DNA from: Lingula anatina
Taxonomy: Eukaryota; Animalia; Brachiopoda
DNA length: 64,000 nucleotides
Assembly (NCBI GenBank): GCA_051362555.1
Contig: CM120640.1
Coordinates: 1,116,001-1,180,000 of the forward strand
Direction of reading: 5' to 3'
Shown: positions 13,819 through 56,100 of the stretch, in pieces
Layout: each line of letters starts with the position of its first letter
Position numbering within the stretch: position 1 is the stretch's first letter
Program-made: the position numbers and the translations under genes
Notes under the pieces: generated by a model
Databases searched by the model: none
Told to the model about the DNA's origin: nothing
What the model saw: only the letters and a program-made list of their open reading frames with translations

Positions 13819-16800
13819 TTATTCAAACTTGATTCCCTGGGCCAGTGGTAACTCCCTGCTGCAGTTAATTGTGCTGGAAGAGGAACACGAGAAATTCAAT
13901 CTAATAATAATAATAATAATAATAATTCAGAATATATTCAAGATATTTAATAGACTTAACAAGTTCAACAGAATGAGGATGATGCATAACTGGAACTTAC
14001 ATTAGCAACTGATCTGACCAATGTATCAGTATGATTCAGAGTTAAACATAACTGTCATTCAAATTCTACTGGATAACTAAAAACATTCTATCAATAATGT
14101 TACATAGGCTTAACAATGTAAAATACAAGTTAAAGAAAATTGATAAAAGCAAAGCTTAGGTTAACTTAAACAATATACATGTATATTGGAAACATATTCA
14201 ATGTCCTTGCTTCACATCTTTCATAGGATCAGCAAAGATAACTTCCAAAGAATACGAGAAATCTGATTTGAGAAATCTGTATTTCCCCATCCAGCTTTAT
14301 TAAGATGGTTCAGACATAAAACCTTTATAAGAACATTTGCATATACATCTCATATTTTTTTAAATTTTCAATACTGAATTTGAATTTCCATAACCCATAG
14401 CCAAACCACAATTAATTTAGAATTATTCAACTTGTGTGAGGCTGCTTCCATGGCAACCAGTAACTTTTTTACCAAAAGCACGATCAGGATATATATCTCA
14501 TACTAATGTATAAGTGTAATTGGGTTTTCATCTTCTTGGGCCTAAACTCACTCCTTGAGAGGTGGGAAGGGGGGGAATCTTTAACCATGATAAAACAGGT
14601 ACTAGTACACCGTTACCTTGTCTCTAACAGTAAGTCCTCTTTTCTCACAGCACCCCCTACCCCCTGGGGTCCAGCCTACCACATAGCTCTTCTCATGTGT
14701 TGTTTCCAGTGATCCTTAATCACTAGCAGTAAGTCCTCTATTCTCACTGCCCACTCCCCCTCACCCCACCCCACCTCTCCTCACCCCATCCACCCCTCCT
14801 CACCCCAGGGGTTCAACCTACCATGTAGCTCTCCTCATGTACTGTTTCCAGGCGTCACTGCCAGATTCTCGTCCTCCACCAGTGTGCTTCTCTCCACCTG
14901 ACATTGCAAACAACACAGTGAATGAGCAGCTTAATTCTCTCTGGCACAATTTATAACAAGTCCTGGCCCTGTATCTCGAAAGCATCGTGCACTGCGCAAG
15001 AGTCTCGATTCCAACCCCCCCCCCCCCCCCCATATGGGGCGAGTATGGGCAATTTATGGAATCGAGACGCTTGCGCTCAGTCGCAATGCGGGATGCTTTC
15101 GAGTTACGGGTCCCTGATCAATTTCAAGACACAATTTACATAGTTGTGGTATAGGGAATAAATACAAAGGTCTATTAGCTATTTGAAAAAATTTAGCATC
15201 AAACATTTCTGAAAGCTACCTGGTAAAACTAGGAATTTACACACAAGTTATCAAACTTTCAAATTACAGCTATCCAGAAATACGACCAGTGACCACCTAT
15301 ACCAGAATGTAACTGAGCCATGAAATAAAAAGCACACTTCCAGGTGGTTTCTTACCAAATGCTCCTCCAATCTCAGCGCCACTGGTAGGAATGTTCACGT
15401 TGATCAGGCCACAGTCAGATCCTTTAGGGCTGGGAAATTAAAAGTGGTAATAAATCTTGAACCACCGATTTTCACGCCAATATACTGTTCAATACTCAAG
15501 TAAGTTAACTTACATGTACAATTGAATGAATACACCAGCAAAAGTATCCTTTGGGTCTGGGAAATAACAAGTAGTAAAAAATAATGATGATTAGTTGTAA
15601 AAGCAATTAATTATTCAATATTCAACTGCCTCTGATAAACTAACATTTGAACAAACACCAGCAAAACTCCCTTTTTCTAACAAATACTCCTTATTTCTGT
15701 AAAATTTCAGGAATAAATTTTAAAGGTCACGGTTATACTTACCCAATCCATTTGAAAACATTACTGATATCCCTGGTGAAGAGACTACTGGATAACCCCT
15801 GCTTTACCTCATTGTTCCATTTGATACCTTCTTCTAAACTCTACAACATCACAGTGGTGACATAAGTGATATATTGGAAAAAGATCGTCAACTTCCTTAC
15901 AGTCAACAGTTAAAATATGACTTTGCAAAATGAATGCCAGAATTGCCAAAATAAAGGATGCTACTATTTATCAAAATGGGATCAGATAATCTTGTTTAAA
16001 GAGAAAATCCTTCAAATTGAACATCTCCCATTTCAGTAATAAGTAATAATAGTCAAAAATAAAATAAGAACAATACATATTAATAAAAGCCAGTTACTTT
16101 ATAAATTTGTTTTTCCACTTCCAACATACATATTTATTAAAAAAGTGAGTTACACAGAAGAACAAGGGCTCATGGGAACACTTACCTTACACTTCATAAT
16201 GTAGACAATGGGAGCAAACGTTTCTCTGTGTACAATTTCCGCGTCATGGGGTAAACCAGTCACGATGGTGGGCTCAACAAAGTTTCCTGGTCGATCCACT
16301 GCCTACAAGAATAGTGTCAACATATTTGTTTATTTTTTTCATATAAATATGCTACATTGAAATTCTTATCTAAGAAACCCAATGACATTAACAGCATTAA
16401 ATTGTTCCTCAGCTCTCTCTCTCTCTGAATATTAAACTACTCTGAGAGACAGAAAGGGTTAATTTTATTAGAGTCATGTCAAAAAATCATTGGAAATTGA
16501 CTGATAAACTATAATTAAAAGACAGGGTATAAGTTGTTAAAGCTATAAATTTATGTGTGAGTGTAAGTGTGGCCCCATCTCCATACACAAAATGCTGAGG
16601 GGAGCAAGGGGGGATGGCTATACAAATAAGACCTTGTTCAAGGAATATCAAGCATGAAAAGAATTTTGGCCTGTGTTATCTAACCTTGCCTCCAACTTCT
16701 ATCTTTCCACCCTGTGCTTGGACATCTGCTACTGCTTTCAGATATAATTCCACTCCTTGTTTAGAATGCATTGGTCCCAGTAGTGTGCCAGCTGGAGGGA

Positions 16801-53100: not shown

Positions 53101-56100
53101 AGTATGATATTTAAAGAAAGGTGGACTACTGTACAGAGACAGTGACAGCAATCCTCACCATGTTGAAACTGTGACTCCACCTTCAGGTACTGTTTTAATA
53201 AGTCCTGCACCACCATTCTCATGTGACCTCTCACCCCGCTGCGGTACCTAAAATACCAAACGGCTTGTAAATTAAGTCTGTCCTGATCTTAAAGATAAGT
53301 GTGCCTATAAAGCAACATTTCAATTTTGAACTTGAAAATGTTTCTTAATGAAAAAATTTGTAAAATACAGACAATGAAAGCATCCCCCTCAAAAAAACAG
53401 ATAAGATTATCTAGTGTCTAAACCACATATACACACAAGCTTTCAACAATATTATAATCCAAGCAGGACGCTTACTTTAATGAAAATATGAAGTCTATAA
53501 TATTACCTGAAGTCTGTTTCACTTTAGTTCTGAAAGAGATTTGTGTCATCCAATTTGACTTTTATTTTTAAATATTTTGAGTTAATATAATAAATGTGAC
53601 TGTTATTCTTACCTCTGTACCAGTTGTACAATGCCCTGAGTGGTCATAAAGAAAACATCCCTGTCTGATCTCTTAGTTAAAGTGGCAGCATAACTGTCTA
53701 TCACAGTGGCTATCTGGAGCACATAAATACCAAGATTAAATACCAAAATTTCGGATTCACATAAAAATGAAACGTTGCTTATGTATGTTTGTGGTTATCC
53801 AAAGTGAAAAACATGATATTTTATAACTCCCAGATTTGATTGCCTAGCCAATTTATATTTCAAAAGGGCAATGGGAAAACATACATGTTTTGTGTGATTA
53901 AGATATTTCATGATTTTTTTGGGTAAAAGACAGTAACTAACTTCATGAAAATGCATGGATTAAACTATCAAAATGATAAATATAAGATAAAAATAAAATT
54001 CCTTGTTAAAAATTCTGCTAAAAACAAAGCAGGAGCATTTTATAAATGTTTCAAACACTTACTGATCAGGAATACCTGCCCACAGGTGAAAAATACAATT
54101 TACTCACAAATAATCACTGAGTGAATATCCTTATTTACCAAAAAAGTGAAAAAAAAGCTTAATAAAAGAGCTCACTTGTTGACTTGGAAACTGGCAGAGA
54201 ATAGAGGTGATGTTGCTGGCGTAGACTTGCATGTGTTTACGAATGGTCCTCTCTACCTGTGGCGGCAGTCGCCCAGATATCATGGAGATCAACTCCTGAG
54301 GGAGAGAACATGAATAAATGTGTCACTTACAGGTGATTATGATGATAGTAGTATTTTCAGAAAAGATACAAACACACTTTTATAATTCTTGGGAGTTAGT
54401 TTTGACAGACCTGGTGATAATAAAAAAGAGATGCCTTTTATAAACTCAAATTACATATAAAACAATGGTATTAACTTGAAACCATTCTGATAGATATTAT
54501 AAACTTGGAGGCAAGGTAGTCCAAGTTTATACTCATACACTGAGCTTAGCCCATATTGCACTTCTTTAAATAATAAGGTAAGTAATAACTCTTACCTGTA
54601 GTTCTAACAGTGGCATACTGGGGTCCCTGATACAGGTAAGTAGAGTATTAAGCACATCTCCCAGGCGTTTCTTGAACACCTTGTCATCAGGTATGGCGTA
54701 TCCTGCCAGGATATTCTCCAGCGAGGCTCTGGCACTCTGGAACACTTGGTGGAGTTTGTCACCATGCATGGATGTCACAGTGTTGTGTGTAACAGCTGGC
54801 AGCTTGCCGTGGAATAACTGAGCCTGGAGAGCACATAAACAGGTTGTGTGATATCCTGGTACTTACTGAAAGATTATTCATCTCCGAATTTCTTTTTTAG
54901 TCCACTGTTATTATTCAGTGAAATAATAATATGGGACTCAGCAATTAATTGGATGCTAAAACTAGCATCATTAGTCACCAAGGGTCATATCAACCATGGC
55001 ACTAGCGAGATTGAGAGTAGTAAGCTGACTTTACCTAACTGCATATCTGTTGTACAGTACATAGATTGTAAAATGAGAATAATAATATACTGTATAAAAT
55101 TATGAATTATTGAAGTCAATTAGAAAATTCAGATTTCAATTAATTTTAGCTTACTGTGAGGCATTTGGCTGAAAAATTTTAGGTCACAAACACAGCAGAT
55201 TTTAATTTCATAACAACTAATTTAAAAACAAACTTGAGCAGTGCATGGATTTTACAATGAAAAATTACTCCCACCCCCTCCACCCACCTGTTGTACTCTG
55301 CTGGGATCATCTAGCTGTAGTTTACACACTATACTTCCAGCATCAAGTACACCTCACATTACCCCCACCCCCTCCACCCACCTGTTGTACTCTGCTGGGA
55401 TTATCTAGCTGTAGTTTACACACTATACTTCCAGCATCAAGTACACCTCACATTACCCCCACCCCCTCCACCCACCTGTTGTACTCTGCTGGGATCATCT
55501 AGCTGTAGTTTACACACTATACTTCCAGCATCAAGTACACCTCACATTACCCCCACCCCCTCCACCCACCTGTTGTACTCTGCTGGGATTATCTAGCTGT
55601 AGTTTACACACTATACTTCCAGCATCAAGTACACCTCACATTACCCCCACCCTCTCCACCCACCTGTTGTACCCTGCTGGGATCATCTAGCTGTAGTTTA
55701 CACACTATACTTCCAGCATCAAGTACAGCTCCTGGTCTCTTTACATAGTGAACACTGCAATGAACAGTCACTACAAGGTCAGTCACAATAAAATGTTTTA
55801 TTGTCATCACTTGTGCATTTAATTATGTGATCTTTGGCAATGAAACTTTGTTGTATGCAACATAATAAATTTTAAATCTTTGATTTGAAATGGTTAACAA
55901 TCTTCAAATTAAGTGTGTCCGAAAAGGTCATATTTATAATAATAGCATGATTTGAATAAATCAAATTCTGCTAACTTAATCCTAACTTTTTCAAAAAGCA
56001 TTACCCTTCAAAAGATCATGTCTTATTCTACAGAAATGTTAAAAAAGCCAATGCCATCCTACCATCCACTCTCCGTCACCCTTAACTCCATCACCATCTT

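What the first reader, a model, noticed from the sequence alone, without database searches (positions are those of the whole stretch)
14627..55727. Splice-junction-anchored tandem repeats: a recurrent class of arrays made of exon edge plus intact splice site
Seen: seven unrelated junctions in two housekeeping genes carry tandem copies that straddle the exon-intron boundary. Donor type: 14627-14850, 17521-18780, 20345-21028, 38408-38468, 55270-55727. Acceptor type: 35965-36300, 37085-37220. Periods run from 26 to about 140 bp and ages from homogeneous to decayed. Few other non-coding minisatellites occur in the window, so junctions look strongly over-represented even though decoy splice sites should be harmful. 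The largest, most homogeneous arrays are donor type (real site transcribed first); acceptor arrays (decoys first) are short or degenerate. In the three young donor arrays the unit junction falls at or next to an AG (ttaaag|TG, tataag|CT, gtgag|gt). Inference: a splicing- or transcription-coupled duplication process (R-loop or pausing slippage, or templating by a spliced or circular RNA) targets junctions, and exon definition or NMD tolerates the products. I do not know a named system for this, but I could not search the literature.
Basis: partly seen in the sequence, partly recalled or inferred. Interest (0 to 1): 0.85.

Follow-up and report, generated by a model that had tools for sequence, protein, structure and literature searches.

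The report
Brachiopod splice-junction "mirage" repeats
In two housekeeping genes of the lamp shell Lingula, ten exon edges have been copied head-to-tail together with their splice signals, a repeat type already known from lancelets and human genes as a "mirage"; the extra signals are likely ignored, and the exon-end cases sit at G-rich spots that may help start the copying.

Summary
Confirmed and extended. The window is Lingula anatina. Of 14 genic non-coding duplications, 10 straddle a splice site; 2.9-4.0 are expected (P 4e-5 to 8e-4, or 0.003-0.03 if junction copies stay visible twice as long).

The class is known: amphioxus "mirage" minisatellites and the human F7 intron-7 VNTR. This scan has noted it before in many other genomes.

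Templating by spliced or circular RNA is ruled out by anatomy: each unit holds an unspliced junction. The donor/acceptor size asymmetry is not significant (3/5 vs 0/5, P=0.17).

An unselected control (ACC genes, 37 sequence groups from metagenome contigs) showed no enrichment: 3-6 of 36, 3.9 expected. The local excess is therefore lineage-specific or comes from the window having been picked for it.

One new lead: four of the five duplicated donors rank in the top 6 of 68 for sense-strand G-runs (P=6e-4, post hoc); acceptors show no such link. No Lingula genome was held, so genome-wide enrichment is untested.

The parts
13819..24774 (-). ALDH7A1 (alpha-aminoadipic semialdehyde dehydrogenase), 18 coding exons, 539 aa; host gene
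   Evidence: Exon model matches Lingula anatina P0121 at 538 of 539 aa
35100..62437 (-). Acetyl-CoA carboxylase, 52 coding exons modelled, open frame of 2262 aa; host gene (5' end may lie further upstream)
   Evidence: tblastn and GT-AG junction search
14621..14851 (-). Donor mirage, ALDH7A1 exon 17 (real donor 14822, decoy 14680), 142 bp, old; very G-rich intron part
15419..15587 (-).
   Evidence: 39 bits
17525..18781 (-). Donor mirage, ALDH7A1 exon 11 (real donor 18729, 17 decoys), 70 bp unit; the unit lacks 7 bases of the parent exon and has about 10 seam bases matching neither flank
20342..21028 (-). Donor mirage, ALDH7A1 exon 7 (real donor 20971, 8 decoys), 76 bp unit
23388..23512 (-).
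   Evidence: 30 bits
35962..36309 (-). Acceptor mirage, ACC exon 51 (real 35987; decoys 36074, 36112, 36193, 36274, all AG intact), about 78% identity
   Evidence: spanned by one contig of DNA run X4
37085..37227 (-). Acceptor duplication, ACC exon 49 (real 37126, decoy 37197), 71 bp, 93-96%; 3-base microhomology at the seam
38404..38477 (-). Donor duplication, ACC exon 47 (real 38455, decoy 38429), 26 bp; bounded by an imperfect direct repeat of about 12 bases
51155..51261 (-).
   Evidence: 40 bits
55264..55731 (-). Donor mirage, ACC exon 16 (real donor 55664, 4 decoys), 94 bp unit with a G-run tract after the GT
17330..17474 (.). Comparison set: purely intronic duplication (25 bp match, 120 apart)
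39828..39892 (.). Comparison set: purely intronic duplication (37 bp period)
40990..41086 (.). Comparison set: purely intronic duplication (55 bp period)
62629..62766 (.). Comparison set: duplication (68 bp period) upstream of the first modelled ACC coding exon, counted as intronic

Best explanation
These are 'mirage' minisatellites, tandem copies of an exon edge with its splice site, that likely arose as short DNA-level duplications (slippage or break repair, likely favoured at donors with G-runs on the sense strand) and likely persist because the authentic site is still the one used. Shown: the copies, their junction content, intact host reading frames, the local excess over random placement, and the G-run ranking of duplicated donors. 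Inferred: (1) a 26-142 bp founder duplication made on unspliced DNA, with 0-3 bases of microhomology or a few inserted bases at the seam (one seam uses an imperfect repeat of about 12 bases); (2) purifying selection removes duplications wholly inside exons but spares those across a junction, because one whole exon remains and the copies fall in the intron; (3) unequal exchange or slippage later amplifies a decoy unit, as at 17525 where all decoys share a 7-base deletion absent from the exon; (4) first-donor choice, exon definition and probably NMD make the decoys nearly silent. The arrays are most likely tolerated by-products, not a regulatory system.
For: Every unit contains exon plus adjacent unspliced intron. 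10 of 14 genic duplications cross a junction against 2.9-4.0 expected, P 4e-5 to 8e-4; both genes contribute (ALDH7A1 5 junction: 1 intronic, ACC 5: 3). On single-copy reconstructions, duplicated donors rank 1, 2, 4, 6 and 25 of 68 by sense-strand G-run score (Mann-Whitney P=6e-4 at 40 bases; 0.002 and 5e-4 at 30 and 60), a stronger signal than GC content (P 0.01-0.02). Short-loop G4 minisatellites are unstable in yeast (PMC6614823, passages). In human F7 only the most upstream of 5-9 identical donors is used (PMC1557585, abstract and Discussion). Amphioxus mirages leave splicing intact (PMC3087553, PMC3902484, passages). All 31 decoy donors and 7 of 8 decoy acceptors would truncate the protein. 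RNA runs X12 and X15 have depth 0 at 36156-36362, and no excess at 35949-36155 over what the exon explains (my arithmetic on its depth table). DNA run X4 has one contig across the 35962 array.
Against: In 37 unselected sequence groups of ACC genes, 3 (strict) to 6 (lenient) of 36 duplications crossed a junction against 3.9 expected, so a general junction bias is not shown. The G-run link rests on 5 events, is post hoc, misses the largest array (17525, rank 25) and does not hold for the 5 acceptor events (P=0.77). The donor mirage in control locus L033 does not look G-rich by eye. RNA depth on ACC exons was only about 5-7 reads, splice joints were not displayed, and no RNA was seen for the three young donor arrays.
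Confidence: 0.52

Rival explanations
1. No mutational bias at all. Ordinary tandem duplications in a gene with short introns (median 326-382 bp) often hit junctions; the exon-side copy is conserved so the pair stays detectable longer; and the window was chosen from very many because it was extreme.
For: 20-30% of surviving duplications cross a junction by geometry alone. The control set shows no excess. Allelic differences in run X4 fall mostly in introns (2 of the 21 listed differences in 35581-36781 are exonic), which supports a retention effect of up to about twofold.
Against: A weight of 3-4 is needed to lose significance. 4 of 5 young (>=93%) events and 5 of 5 multi-copy arrays are at junctions (P=0.017 and 7e-4), and for these a visibility advantage matters little. 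It does not predict the G-run ranking.
Confidence: 0.25
2. Homology-edge recombination: in a highly heterozygous genome, strand exchange between alleles runs easily through conserved exons and stalls at indel-rich intron edges, where template switching makes tandem copies across either junction type.
For: Equal numbers of donor and acceptor events (5 and 5). Run X4 differs from the window mainly in introns, with many gaps (33 substitutions and 38 gaps over 38856-40700). The idea itself is inference.
Against: No direct test here; it does not explain the donor-only G-run link.
Confidence: 0.1
3. Splicing-coupled targeting: polymerase pausing or spliceosome assembly at junctions of germline-expressed genes exposes DNA to breaks, so junctions themselves are hot spots.
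For: Both affected genes are housekeeping genes. The neighbouring lectin/EGF gene has no non-coding junction duplication at 18 junctions. The junction rate is 10 of 137 here against 3-5 of 330 in controls, P 4e-4 to 3e-3.
Against: Spliced ACC genes in other eukaryotes show no excess. 0 of 18 is what a 7% rate gives about a quarter of the time. Seams show no fixed position relative to the splice site (14 to about 90 intronic bases in donor units).
Confidence: 0.08
4. The three young arrays, or their copy numbers, are assembly artefacts.
For: The 70 bp array is 99% homogeneous, with only 2 distinct internal unit types among 16; no read-level check of the three young arrays was obtained.
Against: Units differ from the parent exon by shared changes, and variants are scattered irregularly (6 distinct of 7 internal units at 20342). 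Seven of ten events are diverged. The 35962 array is spanned by a contig of another run.
Confidence: 0.03
5. Units were templated by a spliced or circular RNA (reverse transcription, rolling circle).
For: An AG lies near the seam in 4 of 5 donor arrays (P 0.03-0.07).
Against: Each unit carries an unspliced exon-intron junction in its middle, and no unit runs from acceptor to donor. The GT..AG stretch inside young donor units is only 21-29 bases, below a workable intron size (established knowledge).
Confidence: 0.02

Closest known systems
Amphioxus 'mirage' minisatellites (Adh3, globins BflGb6/BflGb9, troponin C, PGBD5). PMC3087553 and PMC3902484, passages read; Canestro et al. 2002 (PMC117041) was not held and is known here only through those citations.
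   Same: Tandem copies of an exon-intron boundary, at both 5' and 3' boundaries; units 10-160 bp there, 26-142 bp here; many copies keep AG/GT; several per gene; homogenised internal units; origin described as unclear.
   Different: A brachiopod rather than a cephalochordate; here the density is measured against a null (10 of 137 junctions) and duplicated donors are G-rich. Haplotype length variation and somatic instability, reported in amphioxus, were not tested here.
Human F7 intron-7 37-bp VNTR (PMC1557585; abstract, outline and Discussion read)
   Same: First unit spans the exon/intron border; 5-9 identical donors follow; only the most upstream is used.
   Different: A single locus, tested with minigenes; donor side only. 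Here there are ten loci in two genes, half on the acceptor side.
Variable internal tandem repeats at exon-intron boundaries of human duplicated genes (PMC2812944; passages read) and intron gain by tandem duplication (as discussed in PMC3087553)
   Same: Tandem repeats at exon-intron borders carrying cryptic splice sites.
   Different: There the repeats change gene structure or create introns; here the modelled exons and reading frames are unchanged.

Membership tests
Mirage minisatellite | Tandem repeat whose unit spans an exon-intron boundary | tested here: met
   10 loci, on exon models
Mirage minisatellite | Both 5' and 3' boundaries can be duplicated | tested here: met
   5 donor and 5 acceptor events
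Mirage minisatellite | Unit length in the minisatellite range (10-160 bp in PMC3087553) | tested here: met
   26-142 bp
Mirage minisatellite | Many copies keep AG/GT signals | tested here: met
   31 of 31 decoy donors keep GT, 7 of 8 decoy acceptors keep AG
Mirage minisatellite | Concerted evolution of internal units, edge units excluded | tested here: met
   17525: 2 types among 16 internal units, a private change in the last unit, and the parent exon differs from all decoys
Mirage minisatellite | Regular splicing is not disturbed | tested here: inconclusive
   Database protein P0121 follows the authentic sites (its RNA support was not checked). RNA depth 0 over two ACC decoy acceptors but only about 5-7 reads on exons, joints not displayed. 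No RNA seen for the young donor arrays.
Mirage minisatellite | Length variation between haplotypes or somatic instability | tested here: inconclusive
   The old 35962 array has the same length in run X4; X4 contigs break at the 71 bp duplication. The young arrays were not examined.
RNA-templated duplication (spliced or circular RNA) | Unit lacks intron sequence, or starts and ends at splice sites | tested here: not met
   Every unit has an unspliced junction inside it
Intron gain by tandem duplication | Copied AG/GT pair used to excise a new intron | tested here: inconclusive
   Gene models need no new intron; GT..AG inside young donor units is 21-29 bases; RNA joints not seen

The most novel reading that the evidence does not exclude
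Lingula has a genome-wide, roughly threefold or greater mutational bias for tandem duplication at splice junctions of housekeeping genes, driven on the donor side by G-runs on the non-template strand (R-loop/G4 loops). That would give mirages a first mechanism and make this genome a natural assay of decoy splice-site choice and intron gain.
Probability: 0.22. Interest if true: 0.6.

Novelty: new member of a known kind. Interest (0 to 1): 0.3.

Why it matters
Mirages are known, but the paper that describes them calls their origin unclear (PMC3087553). My ten literature searches returned no brachiopod case and no genome-wide enrichment test; the library lacks most subscription papers, so this is weak. 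If the local excess and the G-run link hold genome-wide, they would tie a measurable sequence feature to where splice sites get copied. They would also offer many natural tests of first-donor choice and, less well studied, of acceptor choice when near-identical decoys come first. If not, this is a dense but ordinary example.

Tried and rejected
No whole genome is held for this window, so no genome-wide Lingula test was possible.

BLAST self-comparison missed the 26 bp array and other short periods, so it was replaced by a diagonal scan. The first versions of that scan failed or under-scored some hits; only the corrected run is used.

The look-up of sequencing runs listed no RNA holder; raw RNA runs of the same species label were laid instead. 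In one search the joint table was filled by high-copy repeat inserts, so splice joints were not displayed. RNA evidence for the ALDH7A1 junctions and for the three young donor arrays was not obtained and stays open.

Rejected: spliced or circular RNA template (anatomy); donor/acceptor asymmetry as a rule (P=0.17); purging of decoy signals (8 of 9 old decoys keep GT/AG, about 5.8 expected at 80% identity, my estimate, so neither purge nor retention is shown); GC content as the explanation of acceptor events (P=0.65).

Strand asymmetry of G-rich peaks was suggestive only: about 4 of 10 non-exonic sense peaks against 0 of 7 antisense peaks carry a duplication, counted by eye.

Control set: 50 of 80 loci had a resolved intron over 100 bases. 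Of 45 events, 4 were dropped as repeats within a sequence group and 5 for lying in unresolved gaps, leaving 36. Junction calls for L064, L073, L034 and L052 were made by eye. These contigs are from unnamed eukaryotes and are probably short-read assemblies that lose long arrays.

PMC10078293 (passages) did not bear on junction-spanning units. PMC117041 was not held. The supplements of PMC3087553 (files 4-7, mirage alignments) were not opened and may bear on unit anatomy.
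Full report
Setting. One exon of the first host gene is 100% identical to Lingula anatina ALDH7A1. The full 18-exon model at 24774-13819 (minus strand) matches that protein at 538 of 539 residues. The second host is acetyl-CoA carboxylase: 52 modelled coding exons at 62437-35100 (minus strand), an open frame of 2262 residues, GT-AG introns. Introns are short (median 382 and 326 bases) and AT-rich (35% and 32% GC, against 48-50% in exons). A lectin/sushi/EGF membrane-protein gene lies at 3134-12029 on the plus strand. No whole genome is held.

Observation. Tandem Repeats Finder and a composition-adjusted diagonal scan confirm all seven arrays. At 24 bits or more the scan gives 18 clusters against 0.35 in 40 shuffles. 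Fourteen lie in the two host genes: ten cross a splice junction (donors 14621, 17525, 20342, 38404, 55264; acceptors 15419, 23388, 35962, 37085, 51155) and four are intronic (17330, 39828, 40990, 62629).

Is it more than chance? I placed each unit at random on the collapsed genes, excluding wholly exonic placements as purged. That gives 2.9 expected junction events using the matched length and 4.0 using the period; P for 10 of 14 is 4e-5 and 8e-4. A junction pair has one conserved copy and may stay visible up to twice as long. With that weight P is 0.003 and 0.03, and with a threefold weight 0.02 and 0.12. Young events (4 of 5 at junctions, P=0.017) and multi-copy arrays (5 of 5, P=7e-4) point the same way. 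These P values ignore that the window was selected for looking unusual.

Control. One ACC exon fetched 80 loci from metagenome contigs. Fifty had a resolved intron over 100 bases, forming 37 sequence groups with 265 introns and 115 kb of intron. Of 45 duplications, 36 remained after dropping 4 within-group repeats and 5 in unresolved gaps. Three (strict) to six (lenient) crossed a junction against 3.9 expected; for periods of 26 or more, 3-5 of 18 against 2.5 (P 0.46-0.08). Clear mirages occur there too (L033, L064), so the class is widespread but not enriched in this sample. Per junction the window has 10 of 137 against 3-5 of 330 (P 4e-4 to 3e-3). The control organisms are unnamed and their assemblies probably lose long arrays.

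Anatomy. Each unit holds exon sequence and the adjoining unspliced intron, so the template was DNA or unspliced, not a spliced or circular RNA. Seams vary: one shared base at 20342, three at 37085, an imperfect repeat of about 12 bases at 38404, about 10 bases matching neither flank at 17525, and one or two extra bases at 55264. This fits slippage or end-joining (inference). At 17525 every decoy shares a 7-base deletion and a substitution absent from the exon, so an aged founder copy was amplified later while the exon stayed intact. An AG near the seam is real in 4 of 5 donor arrays but weak (P 0.03-0.07), and the GT..AG spans in the young units are only 21-29 bases.

A sequence correlate. On single-copy reconstructions the five duplicated donors rank 1, 2, 4, 6 and 25 of 68 for G-runs on the sense strand (P=6e-4; GC content P=0.01). 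The five acceptors show nothing (P=0.77). This fits G4 or R-loop instability (short-loop G4 minisatellites are unstable in yeast, PMC6614823, passages). It may also explain why the large arrays here are donors, though that asymmetry is not significant (3 of 5 vs 0 of 5, P=0.17). The test is post hoc, has five events and misses the largest array.

Splicing. All 31 decoy donors keep GT, and those in the three young arrays score the same as the real site; all would give a premature stop. Seven of 8 decoy acceptors keep AG; one, at 36074, adds 87 bases in frame without a stop. Two RNA runs laid on 34500-40700 show depth 0 at 36156-36362 and no excess at 35949-36155, consistent with use of the real acceptor, but exon depth was about 5-7 reads and joints were not displayed. 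DNA run X4, from another sample and study than the best holders, spans the 35962 array in one contig with 26 substitutions and 8 gap letters, so that array is not an artefact. RNA and read-level evidence for the three young donor arrays was not obtained.

What is known. PMC3087553 (passages) describes minisatellite-like duplications of intron-exon boundaries in amphioxus Adh3 and globins, at both boundary types, units 10-160 bp, splicing intact, origin unclear. PMC3902484 (one passage) adds troponin C and PGBD5. PMC1557585 (abstract and Discussion) shows first-donor use in the human F7 VNTR. PMC2812944 (passages) reports variable repeats at human exon-intron boundaries. Five of seven mirage features are met here and two are inconclusive. 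The scan's notes list the same pattern in urchins, annelids, molluscs and sharks (unchecked AI notes), with one reporting enrichment and one reporting none.

Verdict. A real, dense set of mirage repeats in a brachiopod: a new member of a known kind. The local junction excess is solid as a description of this window but unproven as a genome-wide process. The G-run link at donors is the one lead worth testing. Interest 0.3.

Noticed in passing
window 45828-45894 (-), ACC intron before exon 33: Diverged in-frame duplicate of ACC exon 33 (45121-45192) with AG and GT flanks; candidate mutually exclusive exon.
   Followed up: partly
window 50508-50537 (-): 30-base micro-exon candidate with good splice scores and an open frame in the long ACC intron 24.
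   Followed up: partly
window 35988-36074 (-): Decoy acceptor 36074 would add 29 residues in frame to ACC without a stop, the only decoy that keeps the frame open; thin RNA depth shows no sign of use.
   Followed up: partly
window about 17518 and 18787: A 7-base inverted repeat flanks the 70 bp array, one arm in the exon and one in the intron just beyond the last copy; may be chance.
   Followed up: no
window 7124-9865 (+): 22 x 120 bp EGF-domain array inside one 2.8 kb exon of a C-type lectin/sushi/EGF membrane-protein gene.
   Followed up: partly
window about 34710-34950, 35430-35580 and 37680-38310: High-copy repeat inserts (contig depth 1e3-1e5 in DNA runs), probably MITE-like; the last lies in the ACC intron next to the 38404 array.
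   Followed up: no
window 31759-31878 and 33436-33617: Two intergenic tandem duplications (about 61-65 bp period) between ALDH7A1 and ACC; not tested for an unannotated exon.
   Followed up: no
L033:1991-2525, L064:1072-1416: Donor mirages in ACC genes of two other unnamed eukaryotes: about 11 copies of roughly 50 bp, and a 173 bp pair.
   Followed up: partly
P0149 vs P0121: A second Lingula ALDH7A1 model (306 aa, 5.6 kb contig) carries the same residue as the window at position 447 where P0121 differs; probably the other allele.
   Followed up: partly
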